The position numbers were made by a program. A DNA stretch of 47,596 nucleotides from Candidatus Omnitrophota bacterium. GTDB lineage: Bacteria; Omnitrophota; Omnitrophia; Omnitrophales; Aquincolibacteriaceae. Positions 1 through 15,000 of the stretch are shown in pieces (the stretch's first letter is position 1; each line of letters starts with the position of its first letter). The stretch is from contig JAZDJU010000032.1 in the NCBI GenBank assembly GCA_043803685.1, positions 1-47,596 of the forward strand, in the 5' to 3' direction.

Positions 1-3000
1 GAGCGCCGACGCATCGGGAGATCGCTCTCTGGTACGCCAACAGAGCGCAACGATGGAAAGTCTTAAGGAAGAGATCCTCCGTCTTAATCAGGAATTGGAC
101 GGGACGCCCGGACTGCGTGAGGATCTGCAAACAGCATTGCCAAAGATCGAGAAGGTATTTGCTTCGCAGATCGAGCGTGGAGATGTTGGGGTTATTCTGG
201 ATAGACGTGGACTTGTTTTGACCGTCCAGGACCATGCGTTGTTCGATACCGAAGGGGCCCAGTTCACCTCGGCGGGGGAAGAGGTTCTCGAGAAGGTCTC
301 TACCCTACTGGTTTCGGATCTCCCCAAGAATCGAGTGATCGTGGAGGGGCATACCGACGATCAACCGATCGAAAACGCGGATGAGGTTACTAATTGGGAG
401 TATTCGATCGGTCGTGCGACGGCGATCCTTCATTATTTAATCGATGTCAAAGAATTATCGCCCGGTAGGTTCGGGGTCGCCGGCTTCGCGGAATACAGGC
501 CGGTTACTTCTAATGACACTGAAGAGGGACGGGACCGGAATCGCCGCGTTGAGATCGTGATCTCGCCAGAGAGGAGTTTCGATGCGTCGAGCCGGTAGCG
601 CGGGATCTTTCAGGAAAGTCCTCAAGAGCCTGGCTTTTGTGGTAGCTGTTTTTTTTGTGTTAAGCGCCCTGTCGCTTGGTTTGAATTTTTGGGTCTATCA
701 CGAGCTTCAGTCGCGGCTGAAGATCCGGATGAGCGGGTCCTATGTTCCGGCCATTTTTATCCCGTCGTTTGAGGTCAGGAACGGAACTTTTATTTGGGAA
801 GATCGGGTCCGATTGGTGAATGGGAATTTCAGCGTGACGTTTGATCCGTTGACCTTGGTGTCCCAACAAGGCATTCGGATCATTTTGACGAGCAAGGCGA
901 GCCAGATCCAGTTGCTTGGCAGTTGGGCTCTTCAAGAGGGGATCGAGAACGCAACTATCGATTCCATGACGGCCGATATTCTTCTGGGGCGCCGGGGGTT
1001 GGCCGGCATCAATGAGGTGGAAGTGAAATCTCAAAGTTTTCAATTTTCTCTCAAAAACGCCGATAAAAGAATGTCCCAGAAAACCTGAGGTCTTCCGGAA
1101 TTTATGCGAAAACGTCTTGATGATCTGTTCAAAGGACTTCCGATCGACGAGAAGTATCATTGGGACTCCAAACGAATCTTTAATAAGATCACCTCCGATT
1201 CCCGTGCGGTTGAATCCGGCGATATTTTTGTGGCGTGCCCCGGTACCCGGATGGATGGGCATGATTTTTTAGGGCAGGCCATTTATGCCAAGGCTTCGGT
1301 GGTGGTGTTTGAGAAAGAACCGGAGATCACGATCCCGCCGCACGTGACCGGCATTCGTGTTCGCGACGCCAAGGCCACTCTTGCGGTGATCCTGAACAGG
1401 TTCTATGACTGCCCCGATCAAAAGGTCAAACTGGTCGGCATTACAGGGACGAACGGAAAGACCACCACGACTTATCTTTTACACCGGCTTCTCCGGGAGA
1501 AATTTCCGACGGCTTCACTCGGCACGCTTTGGTATGAGCTTCCGTCCGGAAGGGCGGCTTCGCTCAATACGACCCCCGGCTCCGAGGTTCTGGTACCGAT
1601 GCTCGATCAGATGCAGCAGGAGGGGGTCCAGTATTGCGTGATGGAAGTTTCTTCACATGCGATCAGCCAGAAACGGATCCATGGCCTTGAGTTCGAACTC
1701 GGGGTTTTTACCCAGTTGACTCAGGATCATTTGGATTTTCACCACAGTATGGAAGAATATTTCCAGACCAAGCGGAGCTTTTTTGCCGGTTTTTCCGCGC
1801 CGCGAAAAATGCTTTTCAATAAGGATTGTCCTTATGGCCGGCGGCTGATCGAGGAGTTTCCTCAGGCTAAGACTTTCAGCGTTCTGGGGAAAGCGGATTA
1901 TTGCGTCAAAGACCTTCAGATGAGTTTTCAGGGAAGCAGCTTTGTCATGTGTTATCGGGGCGAGGAGCTTCCGTTCCAGATCCGGTTGCCGATGCGTTAT
2001 AACATCTCGAACGCTTTGGCGGTTTTAAGCTCCATCGATCTTCTCGGGTTCGATCTCCGGGATTTCCGTGGCGCGCTGGAAGAGATCCCGGCAATTCCCG
2101 GTCGCATGGAACGGGTCGGGACGGGGATGGATTACACAGTGTTCGTGGATTATGCCCACACGCCGGATGCTTTTGAGCAAGTGCTTCATGATGCCAAACA
2201 GATGGATCCGAAACGGATCATTACGGTTTTTGGCTGCGGCGGCGACCGCGATCGTGGAAAACGTCCGCAGATGACCCGAGCGGCGTGCCGTTATTCGGAC
2301 GTGGTCATTATGACGTCGGATAATCCGCGTTCCGAAGATCCCGAGGATATTTTTCGTGACATGCGCACCGGACTTCCGGATCCTTTGCCTGCCCCCGGCA
2401 GCATTTTCGAGATCGAGGACCGGCAGGAAGCTATTGAAAAGGCGGTCTCGTTCGCCAAGACAGGCGACGTGGTCTTCGTGCTCGGCAAAGGGCATGAAGA
2501 TTATCAGATCCTCGGTGACGGAAAAATCCCCTTTAGCGACCGCGAGGTCGTTGAATCCGCATTAAAAAGAAAAAGCCGTGTTTTCCTATCTTGAAGCGAA
2601 CCGTCTGCTTCCCGTGGTCCTCGAATTACCCGATCTGTCCCTGAGGATCCGGCATCTCTCCATCGATACCCGTACGCTTGCTCCGGGTGATCTTTTTGTC
2701 GCGTTCCAAGGGGAGAATTGCGACGGGCACGATTTCCTCGCGGCCGCTTTTGAAAAAGGCGCGTCAGGTGCCTTGATCGATCTGAGACGGACGGAGTCCG
2801 TTCTCGCGGGGCTTCGCGCCGCCAAGGTTTCCATTCGCAATCTGATCCCTGTTCCCGATCCTCAGTCAGCGATGACGATACTGGCCGCGGAGTATCGAAA
2901 GACCCTTCCGGTCAAAGTGATCGGCGTGACAGGAAGTGTGGGGAAGACCACGACGAAAGAATTTTTGGCGTATCTCCTTCGCAAAAAATACTCGGTGCTG

Positions 3001-12000: not shown

Positions 12001-15000
12001 AGAACGCCAGTGCGTCGCTTGAGAAACTGATGAAAGCACTTTTGCCGCCTGAGGCTTGGGCTCAAGTCCCGGTCTACGTGGTGCTCGGGAACAGCCGTTT
12101 CAAGATGTACCGGTTCTCAAGCTGTGAATATTATTCATCTGAGCGGCGCACCATCAGTTCGAATGAGGTCCAGTCGGTGGTTCAGCAAACGCGGAACGTC
12201 GCGACGCTTCCGCTGAATGAGTCGATCCTTCAGGCAATCCCGGAGTCTTTCCTTGTCAATGACATGCCGGCGGTGCGGAACCCTGTGGGGCTTGAAGCCG
12301 AGCGCTTGGGAGTGACGCTCCAGATCTACACGATGGAATTTCAGGCTTTCCGGAATATCGCGAAGATCTTTGAGACGTTGGATCTCGATGTGGAAGGTTA
12401 TTTCCCGAAGATCCTGCCGCTTTCAGAGGCCGTGCTAGGGGATGCCGAGAAACAGGAGGGAGGCATGATCCTGGACATTGCGGACGACGCGACGCAGCTC
12501 ATTCTCTGGAAGAACGGTCTTCTTGCTGGGATACGGACGCTTCCGACGGGCGGGCATTTTCTTACGGACTGTTTGGCCAAGGACTGGAATATCGAGGAGC
12601 GGGACGCTGAGAAGGTGAAGGAAAAATTCGCGACGCTCGATATTCGTGAGCAGGAAAGCGAAGAGCTCGTGCCGCTTGTGACCCGTAATGAGAAAGTCCA
12701 GCAATCCATTTCCCGCAAGGAATTCCTGCAGAAGTTCTTCAAACACGCCCACGGTTGGATGACCACGATCCTGGAGGCTTCGGACAACTTTATGCAGGAT
12801 GAGAAGGTTCGTTATCCTCACATCCTGTTCACCGGTGGGGCGGTGATGACGGATGGTTTTCTGGAGTGGGTCCAGAAGGAGTTTTCACGGGACGGGAAGC
12901 TCGGGATCTCACGCCACGTCGAGGCCCCGCAGGAGCTTGTCCGCGATCCGTCCAAGGCCTCCGCGCTCGGGATGTTCAGGTGGATCATGACCTACAAGCG
13001 CGCCCAGGAAGCGCTTTTCACGCCGCGGAGTTTTGTCGCCAAGACCTTCGCCGCCGCCCGCACCTGGATCACAAACTATTTTTAAAATACCCGAAGCAAA
13101 AAAAAGTAAGTTTGTGGTCTAAGGAAGCGTGTATGACTCTTTTGAATCCTAAGAATAAATCTTCAAGACAAAATCTAATTCTTTTGGCCGTTTCTTTCGC
13201 CTTGGGCCTTGGCTCTTCAGAGTATATTGTCCGGCGGTTTGAGCTCGCACCGGAGGTTCTTCGTCAATCGGGCGCTCTTCACTTCGTTGATAATCCTAAA
13301 ATGGTATACGAGTATTTTCCGAATTCCAAGGTCAGCAATATTAAAGTCAATAATCAGGGGTTTAATGACTCAGATTTTGTGTTAGAGAAACCACAAGGTT
13401 TAATTAGGATCGCAATGTTGGGAGATTCAATAACCAAAGGTGAGGGCGTTCCAAAAAAAAAGACCTTTTCTGATAAGTTGGAAGACATATTAAATAGACG
13501 AGAGCGGGATCGGGGGTCTCCTCAAAGGTATGAGGTGATGAACTTCGGGGTGGGAGGATATAATTTAGAAGCAGAGGTTGAGGTTTTAAAAGAAAAAGTG
13601 CTCCCCTATCATCCAGATATCGTCATATTGAACATGTACTGGAATGACAATGAAATCATACCCGGGATATACCAACTTTTCGTATCAAATCGTTATAAAC
13701 TTACTGAGAAGCAGCAAATTTCTCTTGCCAGAGAGTACGTGTCCCGCCGAAATTCTTTTACCCGTTGGCTTGAAAGAAATGTTCTCTACAGGTCAAAACT
13801 GTATCTTTTCATAGTAACCCGGCTTGCTTCTTTTCAAACGACAGTCAATCTGTTGAAGGGGGGTAACATTCCCAATCAGTTTTCAGATCATACGAATATG
13901 GAAAATATCTATCGAGGATTCCGTAAGATCAGTCAACTGAAGGATCAATACGGTTTTGGGTTTTTGATTTGCATCCATCCCGACTTGCTTTATATCGAAT
14001 CTCAAAATAATTATATATTTGCTGATATCGCGCAATCGTTCAATTTCGATTGTTTCCATATGTTTTCCCACTACAAAGGAAAAGGCATCTCTCCGGAAGC
14101 CTTGCAGCGTGCGGATGATCCTGAAGACAAGTGTCATCCTAATGAATTTGGACATGATTTAATAGCCGAAGCGATGCTTCTGGAAATCGAAAAACATGGT
14201 CTTATCGCACGAGCCCGTGAACAGGCCGTTGGCCAGGGGGCGACGCTTAAACTGATGCGCTAGTAGGAGCCGCTCTGTGTTTGGTGTAAAGATGCTGTTC
14301 CGTAAATAAAAGGGAAATGAAGCTCTTACTGCCGGGGTTTCGTCATTTTCAGCTTTCTTTTTCGTCGATAAACTTCTATAATTCGCCACGGTATTTTCTT
14401 CTTCTCTCTTTAATTCAATCCTTATTTTTTATATGACCATGGCGTTAGAAACAGAACCCACAAAGCTTCCGCTACACGAAGAGCATCTCCAAAAAGGCGC
14501 CCGGATGGGTGATTTCGGGGGATGGCTTGTCCCTCTTTTCTATACCAGCATCATGGAAGAACACACCGCCGTCCGCACCAAGGCGGGCGTCTTTGATATC
14601 TCCCACATGGGAGAATTTTTAGTCGAGGGTCCCGGGGCGCTGGCCTATCTTGAAAAGAATCTGCCGCGGCGCGTGACTCCTCTCAAATTCAGCCAGGCGA
14701 GCTACATGCCGCTTGTGAATGACCAGGGCGGCATGGTCGACGACATCATCGTTTACCGCATGGCAGAGCAAAAATTCCTTATCATCGTGAATGCCGGCAA
14801 TATCGAAAAAGATTTCAAATGGTTCAATGCCCGCGTGACGCAAGGAGTGACTCTGACGGACCTGAGCCAGGAGATGGGGCTTTTGGCGCTCCAGGGCCCT
14901 CTGAGTCAAACGATTCTTCTCGAATGCTTTGGGGCTTTTTACAAAGATCTCCGCCGGTTCCATTACAAGGATTTCGAAGGAGGTGTTATCGCCAGAACGG

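What a model noticed while it worked through the whole genome (the two positions that open the first line are those of the whole stretch)
1104..14263. No FtsZ: the dcw cluster ends with ftsQ-like and ftsA genes, and FtsZ is missing from the genome and from all 401 Omnitr [...]
The division/cell-wall cluster is complete and in the usual order (murE, murF, mraY, murD, ftsW, murG, murC, ddl, FtsQ-like g00641, divergent ftsA g00642), but where ftsZ follows in other bacteria lies a GDSL-lipase-like gene (g00643) and then the glycine-cleavage operon. No tubulin/FtsZ-family gene exists anywhere in the assembly. The same holds for genus and phylum, so Omnitrophota are a further FtsZ-less lineage of the PVC group which, unlike Planctomycetota and Chlamydiota, keeps FtsA together with FtsQ-, DivIC-, FtsW-, FtsI-, FtsK-like genes, MreBCD/RodA/PBP2 and peptidoglycan synthesis. 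Published overviews count Omnitrophota among FtsZ-bearing PVC phyla.
Evidence so far: Calls 110-111: gene order; no Tubulin (PF00091) or FtsZ_C row among 2589 proteins; FtsA+SHS2_FTSA on g00642, DivIC g02278, FtsK g00872, FtsI-like g00518. Call 112: NCBIfam TIGR00065 six-frame: 0 of 20 genomes of the genus; control 13 of 14. Call 117: 0 of 401 Omnitrophota genomes (397 >=90% complete) over the cut-off; 3 have weak matches (51-56 bits, cut-off 295). Call 120: PF00091 at E<=0.01: 0 of 5 genomes incl. two of 99-100% completeness. Call 126: tubulin signature GGG[TS]G[STA]G only in 2 unrelated contexts in six frames. Call 143: same search on four MAGs of other phyla: found in the Myxococcota and Bacteroidota MAGs (425, 348 bits), not in two Planctomycetota MAGs, as expected. 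Call [...]
(Added by a program. Inside this text positions count along the whole contig: contig position 1 is position 1 of the stretch shown here. "Call 12" and the like, gene names such as g00115 and contig names such as C1 are that model's own, and its searches are not shown. The text may have been shortened before it was handed on; [...] marks where a part breaks off. The agent that wrote the report below was given it as the finding of a first reader that could run no searches.)

Follow-up and report, generated by a model that had tools for sequence, protein, structure and literature searches.

The report
FtsZ-less Omnitrophota division gene cluster
This uncultured Omnitrophota bacterium, like every relative searched, really has no gene for the division protein FtsZ but keeps a remodelled FtsA; the missing FtsZ is already published, so the remodelled FtsA is the more interesting part.

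Summary
The window carries murE-murF-mraY-murD-ftsW-murG-murC-ddl-ftsQ-like-ftsA. A membrane-anchored GDSL hydrolase and the glycine-cleavage operon follow 47 nt after ftsA.

No tubulin/FtsZ homologue turned up in the genome. None of 401 genomes of the phylum passes the FtsZ cut-off; two carry a TubZ-like protein elsewhere. With the same method, 37 of 80 loci from other phyla show ftsA followed directly by ftsZ.

The loss is not new. Pende et al. 2021 list Omnitrophica as FtsZ-less and their table shows FtsA kept. The one "FtsZ-bearing Omnitrophica", OLB16, is now filed in Ca. Hinthialibacterota.

What I add:
- The excision looks clean: ftsA-yggS-proC here, ftsA-ftsZ-yggS-proC in Nitrospirota-type loci.
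- The FtsAs have lost the conserved FtsZ-binding residues and the glycine phosphate loop.
- One family has lost the whole 2B subdomain.

This scan reached the same conclusions before on other Omnitrophota DNA. I rate it already known, with moderate interest.

The parts
1104..2594 (+). murE (Mur ligase, three domains)
   Evidence: Pfam Mur_ligase_M 161 bits, Mur_ligase_C 119, Mur_ligase 37
2578..3984 (+). murF
   Evidence: Pfam Mur ligase domains; position in the cluster
4006..5091 (+). mraY
   Evidence: Glycos_transf_4, 115 bits
5093..6373 (+). murD
   Evidence: MurD-like_N plus Mur ligase M and C domains
6376..7473 (+). ftsW (SEDS glycosyltransferase)
   Evidence: FTSW_RODA_SPOVE, 375 bits
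7475..8626 (+). murG
   Evidence: Glyco_transf_28 N- and C-terminal domains
8607..10007 (+). murC
   Evidence: Mur ligase domains
10060..11016 (+). ddl (D-Ala-D-Ala ligase)
   Evidence: Dala_Dala_lig_C 149 bits and Dala_Dala_lig_N 63 bits. Used as the anchor for the 80-locus comparison.
11023..11838 (+). FtsQ-like bitopic protein: Lys-rich cytoplasmic tail, one membrane helix, POTRA domain
   Evidence: POTRA_1 22.4 bits, just under the cut-off of 23; sequence; position between ddl and ftsA
11835..13085 (+). Divergent FtsA. Subdomain 1C, a 2B subdomain and the C-terminal helix ending in YF are kept. The phosphate-1 acidic residue, the phosphate-2 glycines and the FtsZ-binding residues are replaced.
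   Evidence: SHS2_FTSA 42 bits and FtsA 41 bits. 21% identity to E. coli FtsA, E=1e-20. The six best PDB sequence hits are all FtsA, PilM seventh. Model pLDDT 88, best folds FtsA with TMq 0.71-0.79. Motif comparison.
13086..13132 (.). 47-nt gap at the place where ftsZ follows ftsA in other phyla
   Evidence: ftsA stop at 13085 and likely ATG of the next gene at 13133. There is no room for a gene or a remnant.
13133..14263 (+). Membrane-anchored GDSL/SGNH hydrolase, seen here only in near relatives
   Evidence: Lipase_GDSL 36.9 and Lipase_GDSL_2 36.1 bits from the ATG 13133 start. Homologues follow ftsA only in L055 and L060, the loci nearest to the window.
14433..19523 (+). gcvT-gcvH-gcvPA-gcvPB-lipoate ligase operon. 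In several genomes of the same order it abuts ftsA directly.
   Evidence: Pfam; ftsA-gcvT junction in L045, L046, L048, L050, L059, L061

Best explanation
Shown: ftsZ was lost from the ancestral ddl-ftsQ-ftsA-ftsZ cluster before the sampled Omnitrophota diverged, and this genome inherits that state. The rest of the peptidoglycan divisome is kept: FtsW, an FtsI-type PBP, an FtsQ-like protein, a DivIC/FtsB-type protein and FtsK, together with MreB and PBP2. FtsA is also kept but has been uncoupled from FtsZ. The residues that are almost fixed in FtsAs encoded next to ftsZ, including the FtsZ-tail contact E303 (E. coli numbering), are replaced. The glycine-rich phosphate-2 loop is gone in all 37 FtsAs examined. 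One family has deleted the whole 2B subdomain. Subdomain 1C and the C-terminal membrane helix stay conserved.

Inferred (about 0.5): the cells build a septum without a Z-ring. FtsA sits on the membrane through its C-terminal helix and recruits or activates the FtsQLB-FtsWI synthase through subdomain 1C. It may no longer cycle ATP as canonical FtsA does. Positioning may be helped by MreB and FtsK, as in Chlamydia.
For: Absence:
- Own genome: 0 matches to TIGR00065 or PF00091 at E<=10. Unfiltered phmmer over all six-frame pieces finds nothing better than E=0.09.
- Phylum: 0 of 401 genomes over the FtsZ cut-off, including the single-contig genomes G143, G149 and G357. PF00091 matches 2 of 401, both TubZ-like proteins outside the dcw cluster.
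- FtsZ partners ZapA and MinC: 0 of 5 genomes. SepF: 0 of 5 over the cut-off.

Positive control: with the same phmmer method on 80 Ddl-anchored loci, 37 have ftsA directly followed by ftsZ. These include 9 of 9 Verrucomicrobiota-, Lentisphaerales- or Kiritimatiellia-titled loci. None of the 12 Omnitrophota-titled loci has ftsZ.

Synteny:
- None of 44 ORFs downstream of ftsA in 20 genomes of the phylum has a tubulin domain.
- Distant classes read ftsQ-ftsA-yggS-proC-PNP-ileS. Four Nitrospirota/Nitrospinota-titled loci read ftsA-ftsZ-yggS, two of them continuing with proC.

FtsA, 38 FtsAs encoded next to ftsZ compared with 37 Omnitrophota-type FtsAs:
- G213 89% to 5%; G214 97% to 0%.
- D242 97% to 0%; R300 97% to 5%; E303 95% to 16%.
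- All 37 Omnitrophota-type FtsAs end in a conserved ...YF helix.
- Subdomain 1C keeps the highest relative identity among the folded subdomains.
- E303 lies in the FtsZ-binding region according to PMC13423804 (passages).
- Family f24 FtsAs (3 of 3 examined) lack E. coli residues of about 237-315. The fold model agrees.

Divisome kept: FtsA in 347 of 401 genomes with one query, and in 4 of 5 of the misses with a profile. MreB, DivIC, FtsK and two class-B PBPs are each in 5 of 5 genomes.
Against: - The window's genome is a 133-contig MAG, 91% complete and 6.6% contaminated. On its own it could hide a gene.
- The 401 genomes are a sample of a larger group and are related to each other. The 37 remodelled FtsAs therefore reflect one or a few events, not 37.
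- The ZapA and MinC controls ring in only 4 and 6 of 14 named genomes, so their absence here is weak support.
- The 2B region aligns at about 20% identity, so single columns such as R300 and E303 could be shifted.
- An earlier scan note on positions 242 and 300 carries the mark 'part of it fell'. I could not see which part.
- The role of R300 is recalled and comes from no paper I could open.
- Nothing here shows where FtsA sits in the cell, whether it binds nucleotide or how the cells divide.
Confidence: 0.85

Rival explanations
1. Division is organised by MreB, a RodZ-like partner and FtsK, as in Chlamydia. FtsA is an accessory or decaying relic, not the organiser.
For: MreB (about 500 bits) and FtsK are present in 5 of 5 genomes. 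The FtsA ATP motifs are eroded and 2B is deleted in one family. G135 gave no FtsA even with the profile: its only match was an MreB-like ORF. The single-protein query missed 54 of 401 genomes.
Against: FtsA keeps its place after ftsQ across the phylum. It folds confidently as FtsA (pLDDT 87-88). Its C-terminal ...YF helix is conserved in all 37 sequences, and subdomain 1C is relatively well conserved. That looks like selection, not decay. No open frame with internal stops was reported among the listed matches.
Confidence: 0.3
2. An FtsZ exists but has diverged beyond recognition by sequence profiles, or an unrelated protein has taken over its ring-forming role.
For: Sequence searches cannot see every remote homologue. 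Omnitrophota proteins diverge fast: FtsA falls to 20-25% identity within the phylum. I ran no proteome-wide fold screen.
Against: - Verrucomicrobial FtsZs, themselves divergent, still score 84-228 bits with a single E. coli query.
- TubZ-like proteins are picked up at 45-54 bits.
- Nothing in the genome reaches E<0.09 without filters.
- There is no room at the ftsA junction (47 nt).
- The FtsZ-tail contact residues of FtsA are lost and 2B is deleted in f24, which is not expected if a conventional FtsZ tail were still bound.
- ZapA and MinC were not found, and SepF did not pass its cut-off.
Confidence: 0.06
3. ftsZ is missing only because of incomplete assembly or binning.
For: The genome is 91% complete in 133 contigs.
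Against: The contig runs unbroken through the junction, with 34 kb downstream of ftsA. 0 of 401 genomes have FtsZ, 341 of them high quality and three of them single contigs. The junction is conserved in 20 further loci.
Confidence: 0.01

Closest known systems
FtsZ-less Omnitrophica as tabulated by Pende et al. 2021 (Nat Commun, PMC8178401) and flagged by Rivas-Marin et al. 2016 (PMC5147048)
   Same: The same phylum and the same pattern: no FtsZ, no SepF, FtsA present (legend passage; supplementary table rows).
   Different: Those papers rest on 5 and 3 genomes and include OLB16, an FtsZ-bearing genome since moved to Ca. Hinthialibacterota. Here the count is 0 of 401, with synteny and an outgroup control. 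In the passages I read they say nothing about changes in FtsA itself.
FtsZ-less division of Chlamydiota (MreB/RodZ and FtsK organise septal peptidoglycan synthesis; abstracts of PMC7029139 and PMC11975371 seen in the listing)
   Same: A peptidoglycan-making PVC lineage without FtsZ that keeps MreB, FtsK, FtsQ/L/B-type proteins and FtsW/FtsI-type synthases.
   Different: Chlamydiae lack FtsA (Pende 2021 legend). Omnitrophota keep it next to ftsQ. The division mode of Omnitrophota is unobserved.
FtsZ-less Planctomycetota
   Same: Loss of ftsZ within the PVC group.
   Different: Most planctomycetes also lack ftsA and ftsB (PMC12283558), and several orders lack peptidoglycan-synthesis genes. Four Planctomycet*-titled MAG loci with ample downstream sequence, and a fifth cut short, did show ftsQ-ftsA without ftsZ. 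Their FtsAs are of the Omnitrophota type and the genomes are only 0.7-2.2 Mb, so the titles may be wrong.
Canonical FtsA (E. coli 7Q6D, Vibrio maritimus 7Q6F/7Q6I, T. maritima 4A2A)
   Same: Same fold and domain order including the 1C insert, the same gene position after ftsQ, and a C-terminal amphipathic helix.
   Different: The phosphate-2 glycines, D242, R300 and E303 are replaced. In the window's order the phosphate-1 acidic residue is also replaced, here VYVGT against E. coli LEIGT. There is no FtsZ to tether.

Membership tests
FtsZ/tubulin superfamily (is any gene of this genome a member?) | Match to the FtsZ or tubulin GTPase-domain profiles (TIGR00065, PF00091) | tested here: not met
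   0 matches at E<=10 in six frames, with controls at 13-14 of 14. Unfiltered phmmer gave a best E of 0.09.
FtsZ/tubulin superfamily (is any gene of this genome a member?) | Tubulin signature motif GGGTG[ST]G (motif recalled, written loosely as [GAS]GG[TS]G[STA]G) | tested here: not met
   Three matches in two unrelated pieces: two in a Gly-rich low-complexity run and one TGGGSGTG stretch in a 300-aa piece.
FtsZ/tubulin superfamily (is any gene of this genome a member?) | Gene directly downstream of ftsA in the dcw cluster | tested here: not met
   A 47-nt gap, then a GDSL hydrolase. 37 of 80 outgroup loci do have ftsZ there.
FtsZ/tubulin superfamily (is any gene of this genome a member?) | Tubulin/FtsZ fold anywhere in the predicted proteome | not tested
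FtsA (PF14450 + PF02491; TIGR01174) | Actin-like fold with the SHS2 1C insertion | tested here: met
   SHS2_FTSA 42.2 bits (cut-off 25.4) and FtsA 41.2 bits (cut-off 31.8). The model has pLDDT 88. The top 18 listed PDB folds are FtsA, TMq 0.71-0.79, and PilM comes next at 0.57-0.61.
FtsA (PF14450 + PF02491; TIGR01174) | Encoded directly after ftsQ in the dcw cluster | tested here: met
   11835-13085, overlapping the stop of the FtsQ-like gene. The same holds in 20 loci of the phylum.
FtsA (PF14450 + PF02491; TIGR01174) | C-terminal amphipathic membrane-targeting helix | tested here: inconclusive
   The sequence ends ...AKTFAAARTWITNYF. A ...YF end is conserved in all 37 Omnitrophota-type FtsAs and resembles the ...W..EFF ends of FtsZ-linked FtsAs. 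The model gives a helix at 400-415 but with pLDDT under 50. Membrane binding itself is untested.
FtsA (PF14450 + PF02491; TIGR01174) | Canonical actin-fold ATP-binding motifs (phosphate 1 D/E-x-G-T/S; phosphate 2 D-x-G-G/A-G; adenosine G-G) | tested here: not met
   The window has VYVGT, DIADDAT and FTGGAV. G213 and G214 stand at 5% and 0% in 37 Omnitrophota-type FtsAs, against 89% and 97% in 38 FtsZ-linked ones. Nucleotide binding itself is untested.
FtsA (PF14450 + PF02491; TIGR01174) | FtsZ C-terminal-peptide binding site in subdomain 2B (E. coli R300 and E303) | tested here: not met
   R300 97% to 5% and E303 95% to 16%. The window has H and G at these columns. 2B is absent in family f24. 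E303's role comes from PMC13423804. R300's role is recalled.
FtsQ (POTRA_1, PF08478) | Bitopic protein with a periplasmic POTRA domain, encoded between ddl and ftsA | tested here: inconclusive
   POTRA_1 22.4 bits against a cut-off of 23. Topology and position fit.
Chlamydia-type FtsZ-less divisome | MreB and FtsK present, FtsZ and FtsA absent | tested here: not met
   MreB and FtsK are in 5 of 5 genomes and FtsZ is absent, but FtsA is present. RodZ was not searched.

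The most novel reading that the evidence does not exclude
Omnitrophota run the first known natural divisome in which a remodelled FtsA replaces the Z-ring as the cytoplasmic organiser of septal peptidoglycan synthesis. 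This FtsA is membrane-anchored, blind to FtsZ and perhaps independent of nucleotide. FtsA would then be sufficient to nucleate FtsQLB-FtsWI without FtsZ.
Probability: 0.3. Interest if true: 0.75.

Novelty: already known. Interest (0 to 1): 0.35.

Why it matters
FtsZ is the most widely conserved division protein, and lineages that divide without it show what the rest of the machine can do alone. That Omnitrophota lack it is already in print.

This check makes the loss firm: 0 of 401 genomes, a conserved junction and an outgroup control. It also explains the conflict in the literature, since OLB16 belongs to another phylum.

The part I found in none of the passages and abstracts I read is what happened to FtsA afterwards. 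It kept its membrane anchor and subdomain 1C, but lost its FtsZ contact residues, its glycine phosphate loop and, in one family, the whole FtsZ-binding subdomain. That is a natural experiment on which parts of FtsA serve FtsZ and which serve the late divisome. It can be tested with purified protein or in E. coli, although the organisms themselves are uncultured.

Tried and rejected
- Complex prediction on two copies of the window's FtsA (residues 8-396, alignment A1): no verdict, score 0.01 against a mark of 0.42. It counts neither for nor against self-association.
- The search for related loci with the FtsA alignment A1 failed because no stretch was conserved enough. I used a Ddl alignment instead.
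- I asked genome search for the genomes behind five Planctomycet*-titled loci, hoping its kinship column would show whether they belong to the window's phylum. It tells no kinship for such genomes. The question of mislabelling rests only on FtsA similarity (L065 FtsA scores 534 bits against the FtsA of L042) and on genome size.
- Papers not held: Megrian et al. 2022 Nat Microbiol on dcw evolution and Szwedziak et al. 2012 EMBO J. Pichoff and Lutkenhaus 2007 was not looked up. The role of R300 is therefore recalled. A search for FtsA with R300 and E303 gave support for E303 only.
- Seymour et al. 2023, the phylum-wide Omnitrophota paper, does not mention FtsZ or FtsA in its main text. I did not open its supplements.
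- Velamenicoccus together with FtsZ: 0 papers.
- I considered and dropped the idea that the two 51-54-bit matches (G358, G397) are relic FtsZs. They carry Tubulin plus TubZ-like_C domains and a Lys-rich tail and lie outside the dcw cluster.
- I considered and dropped the 12-bit phmmer hit on contig C34. It is a RimO/MiaB-like radical-SAM protein.

Full report
**1. The observation**

The ORF list and a Pfam scan confirm the stated gene order on the + strand:
- murE 1104-2594, murF 2578-3984, mraY 4006-5091, murD 5093-6373
- ftsW 6376-7473, murG 7475-8626, murC 8607-10007, ddl 10060-11016
- an FtsQ-like gene at 11023-11838 (POTRA_1 22.4 bits against a cut-off of 23)
- ftsA at 11835-13085 (SHS2_FTSA 42.2 bits and FtsA 41.2 bits, both over cut-off)
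- a GDSL-type hydrolase, then gcvT, gcvH, gcvPA, gcvPB and a lipoate-protein ligase

The hydrolase ORF is listed from GTG 12866 and overlaps ftsA by 220 nt. Its translation shows an ATG at 13133 directly before a hydrophobic anchor. The GDSL domains score the same from that start. I therefore read a 47-nt gap after ftsA. There is no space for ftsZ or a remnant of it.

**2. Is FtsZ absent from the genome?**

The window is contig C32 of a 2,886,458-base, 133-contig assembly rated 91.3% complete and 6.6% contaminated.
- Six-frame searches with TIGR00065 and PF00091 give no match even at E<=10. The same searches ring in 14 (13 over the cut-off) and 13 of 14 named control genomes.
- As a check that does not depend on the tool's first-look filter, I cut the laid genome into 27,694 stop-to-stop pieces of at least 50 aa. 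I ran phmmer with all filters off, using E. coli FtsZ and the two TubZ-like proteins described below.
- The best results were E=0.094 (a Lys-rich low-complexity piece, bias 16) and E=0.12 (a RimO/MiaB-like radical-SAM protein).
- A loose tubulin-signature pattern hits only a Gly-rich low-complexity run and a TGGGSGTG stretch of an unrelated 300-aa piece.

**3. The phylum**

- Of 401 genomes drawn evenly from the window's phylum, 341 are at least 90% complete and at most 5% contaminated. None passes the TIGR00065 cut-off of 295 bits.
- Seven match at E<=0.01. Five of these are 15-16-bit N-terminal snippets. Two are full length, at 54 and 51 bits.
- Those two, from G358 and G397, are 399- and 427-aa proteins with Tubulin (45-49 bits), TubZ-like_C and Tubulin_2 domains and a Lys-rich N-terminal tail. 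Their neighbours are unrelated to division.
- PF00091 over the same 401 genomes finds the same two and nothing else.
- Three of the FtsZ-less genomes are single contigs: G143, G149 and G357.
I get two and 341.

**4. A positive control by synteny**

A Ddl alignment (A2) fetched 80 loci from named genome records, each with up to 7 kb downstream. The nearest two, at 79% and 72% Ddl identity, are titled Candidatus Omnitrophica/Omnitrophota bacterium. That is my basis for the phylum name. I ran phmmer with E. coli FtsZ, E. coli FtsA and the window's FtsA on the six-frame pieces of these loci. The result:
- 37 loci have ftsA followed at once by ftsZ.
- 2 loci have ftsZ without ftsA.
- 14 loci have ftsA, at least 1200 nt of downstream sequence and no ftsZ.
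- 6 loci have ftsA but end too soon to tell.
- 21 loci have neither.

All 9 loci titled Verrucomicrobiota, Lentisphaerales or Kiritimatiellia are in the first class, with FtsZ scores of 84-228 bits. The method therefore sees divergent PVC FtsZs.

The 14 FtsA-only loci split into 9 Omnitrophota-titled (NCBI files Ca. Aceula, one of them, in that phylum), 4 Planctomycet*-titled and 1 untitled. None of the 12 Omnitrophota-titled loci has ftsZ.

**5. What stands where ftsZ should be**

I fetched 10.5 kb around ftsA from 20 genomes spread over the phylum and scanned 44 downstream ORFs against Pfam. None has a tubulin domain.

In distant classes the order is ftsQ-ftsA-yggS(ylmE)-proC-PNP_UDP_1-ileS:
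- L038, L039, L040, L042 and L057 were scanned and show it.
- L051-L053 have the same ORF sizes but were not scanned.
- L041 and L044 lack yggS.
- L043 has two inserted genes first.

In the window's order, ftsA abuts gcvT directly (L045, L046, L048, L050). Alternatively the GDSL gene comes first (the window and L055). Four other loci have unrelated neighbours.

Among the ftsZ-bearing loci, four titled Nitrospirota or Nitrospinota read ftsA-ftsZ-yggS, two of them with proC next. The Omnitrophota arrangement is this one minus ftsZ. From memory, ftsZ-ylmE...ileS is also the order in Firmicutes. This looks like a clean deletion in a common ancestor, with later local rearrangement in the window's order.

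**6. Partners and the rest of the divisome**

I searched five genomes: the window's own, the three closed ones and the 100%-complete G087.
- The FtsZ-binding proteins ZapA and MinC are not found. SepF gives one 18-bit match under its cut-off.
- The controls for these small families ring in only 4, 6 and 7 of 14 named genomes, so this is weak support.
- MreB (about 500 bits), a DivIC/FtsB-type protein, FtsK and two class-B PBPs are each found in 5 of 5.
- The window's FtsA as a single query finds a match in 347 of 401 genomes at E<=1e-5.
- A profile of 17 Omnitrophota FtsAs recovers an FtsA-like gene after ftsQ in 4 of 5 of the genomes that query had missed. The fifth, G135, gave only an MreB-like ORF.

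**7. The FtsA itself**

- The window's protein is 21% identical to E. coli FtsA (E=1e-20).
- Its six best PDB sequence matches are all FtsA, with PilM seventh.
- It folds with pLDDT 88 into a structure whose best matches are FtsA from Xenorhabdus, Vibrio, E. coli, S. aureus and T. maritima (TMq 0.71-0.79), ahead of PilM and MreB.

I aligned 38 FtsAs encoded directly before ftsZ (37 loci plus E. coli) with 37 Omnitrophota-type FtsAs. Columns at least 80% conserved in the first group but lost in the second include:

| E. coli position | FtsZ-linked FtsAs | Omnitrophota-type FtsAs |
|---|---|---|
| G213 (phosphate-2 loop) | 89% | 5% |
| G214 (phosphate-2 loop) | 97% | 0% |
| D242 | 97% | 0% |
| R286 | 82% | 14% |
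| R300 | 97% | 5% |
| E303 | 95% | 16% |
| G337 (second adenosine-motif glycine) | 97% | 57% |

- At the phosphate-2 loop the window reads DIADDAT where E. coli reads DIGGGT.
- In the window's order the phosphate-1 acidic residue is also replaced: VYVGT here against LEIGT in E. coli.
- E303 is described as a contact of the FtsZ C-terminal peptide, mirroring the Thermotoga co-crystal, in PMC13423804 (passages).
- I recall R300 as an FtsZ-binding residue from work I could not open.
- By contrast all 37 end in a conserved helix with a final YF, much like the W..EFF ends of FtsZ-linked FtsAs.
- Among the folded subdomains, 1C keeps the highest within-group identity relative to the FtsZ-linked set (ratio 0.76, against 0.53-0.69 for the others).

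In family f24 (3 of 3 genomes examined, 97-100% complete) FtsA is about 340 aa and lacks the stretch aligned to E. coli residues of about 237-315. That is the whole 2B subdomain. The flanking domains and the C-terminal helix remain. Its model (pLDDT 87) still matches FtsA best, but covers less of each target, and it has one helix where the window's model has three helices and two strands.

These 37 sequences are related, so they stand for one or a few events.

**8. How it most likely works**

Shown: no FtsZ, a complete set of late divisome and peptidoglycan genes, and an FtsA that has lost the features tied to FtsZ while keeping the features tied to the membrane and, by analogy, to late-divisome recruitment.

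Inferred: septal synthesis by FtsW and an FtsI-type PBP is organised without a Z-ring. I put about 0.5 on FtsA being the membrane-bound organiser acting through subdomain 1C. I put about 0.3 on a Chlamydia-like scheme in which MreB and FtsK lead and FtsA is accessory. A missed, unrecognisable FtsZ or an unrelated replacement gets about 0.06. An assembly artefact gets about 0.01.

**9. What is known**

- Two searches for papers holding Omnitrophota or Omnitrophica together with FtsZ found 12 (9 listed) and 11 papers. I read passages of five.
- Pende et al. [quoted passage not shown]
- Their supplementary table has five Omnitrophica genomes. FtsZ is NA in four, and FtsA is present in three of those four. 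Both FtsZ and FtsA are present only in 'Omnitrophica bacterium OLB16'.
- Rivas-Marin et al. 2016 found FtsZ only in OLB16 and left open whether its absence from the two others was real. Their introduction nevertheless lists Omnitrophica as FtsZ-bearing.
- NCBI taxonomy now names taxid 1617433 Candidatus Hinthialibacteria bacterium OLB16, in the phylum Ca. Hinthialibacterota, outside Omnitrophota.
- The 2025 iScience paper groups Omnitrophota with the phyla whose dcw genes are 'highly conserved' and does not single out ftsZ.
- Seymour et al. 2023 do not mention FtsZ or FtsA in the main text.
- Searches for Velamenicoccus with FtsZ, and for Omnitroph* with 'FtsZ-less' and similar phrases, added nothing.
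- Megrian et al. 2022 is not held.

So the headline of the finding is already in print. None of the passages and abstracts I read describes the FtsA remodelling.

**10. Earlier notes of this scan**

I made the look-up after my own analysis. It shows 71 notes on Omnitrophota FtsA in at least 64 genomes. Several reach the same conclusions: the phylum is already reported as FtsZ-less, FtsA has lost its FtsZ-binding part, positions 242 and 300 are changed, the ATP motifs are eroded, and the order is ftsQ-ftsA-yggS-proC. One of them (e1-360742) is marked 'part of it fell', without saying which part. My counts at those two positions (0% and 5%) are close to its 4% and 7%.

**11. Verdict**

The finding is a well-supported instance of a published fact, with a side result on FtsA that deserves a bench test.

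Noticed in passing
L001 1318-2517 (+) = G358:C78; L002 1492-2775 (-) = G397:C10: Two of 401 Omnitrophota genomes carry a 399- or 427-aa TubZ-like protein (Tubulin plus TubZ-like_C domains, GAGGGTGSG signature, Lys-rich N-terminal tail) away from the dcw cluster. They may belong to a partition system of a mobile element.
   Followed up: partly
L063, L065, L110, L120, L132: Loci from MAGs titled 'uncultured Planctomycetales/Planctomycetia' have ddl-ftsQ-ftsA without ftsZ. Their FtsAs are of the Omnitrophota type (L065 scores 534 bits against the FtsA of L042), the genomes are 0.7-2.2 Mb, and no FtsZ is found in any of the five. Either the titles are wrong or some planctomycete-labelled lineages keep FtsA.
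   Followed up: partly
L141 1162-2229 (-), L142 1459-2523 (+), L143 1174-2301 (-): In family f24 the cluster reads ddl-ftsQ-ftsA-ribBA. Its FtsA of about 340 aa has no 2B subdomain.
   Followed up: yes
window 37103-37750 (+) and 38754-39776 (+): Two bitopic proteins, each with a cytoplasmic N-terminus, one membrane helix and a C-terminal SPOR domain. This is the architecture of FtsN, DedD and DamX, so they are candidate septal peptidoglycan binders and possible FtsA partners.
   Followed up: no
window 2-1088 (+): murE is preceded by an OmpA-family gene and a 168-aa ORF with no Pfam match, not by mraZ-rsmH-ftsL-ftsI. The FtsI-type PBP lies on another contig (G000:C31) and the PBP2-type one lies next to mreB on C1.
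   Followed up: partly
window 12866-13132: The long GTG-started reading of the GDSL ORF overlaps ftsA by 220 nt. Its first 89 residues are Arg/Pro-rich and look non-coding. The ATG at 13133 is the likely start.
   Followed up: yes
L073 8824-10089 and 10386-11453: An Anoxymicrobiaceae-titled (Actinomycetota) locus shows two FtsZ-like pieces in tandem after ddl and no ftsA.
   Followed up: no
window 26303-27307 (+): A 334-aa protein with only a ParB N-terminal domain (30.5 bits) sits before batD-like and TPR genes. Its role is unknown.
   Followed up: no
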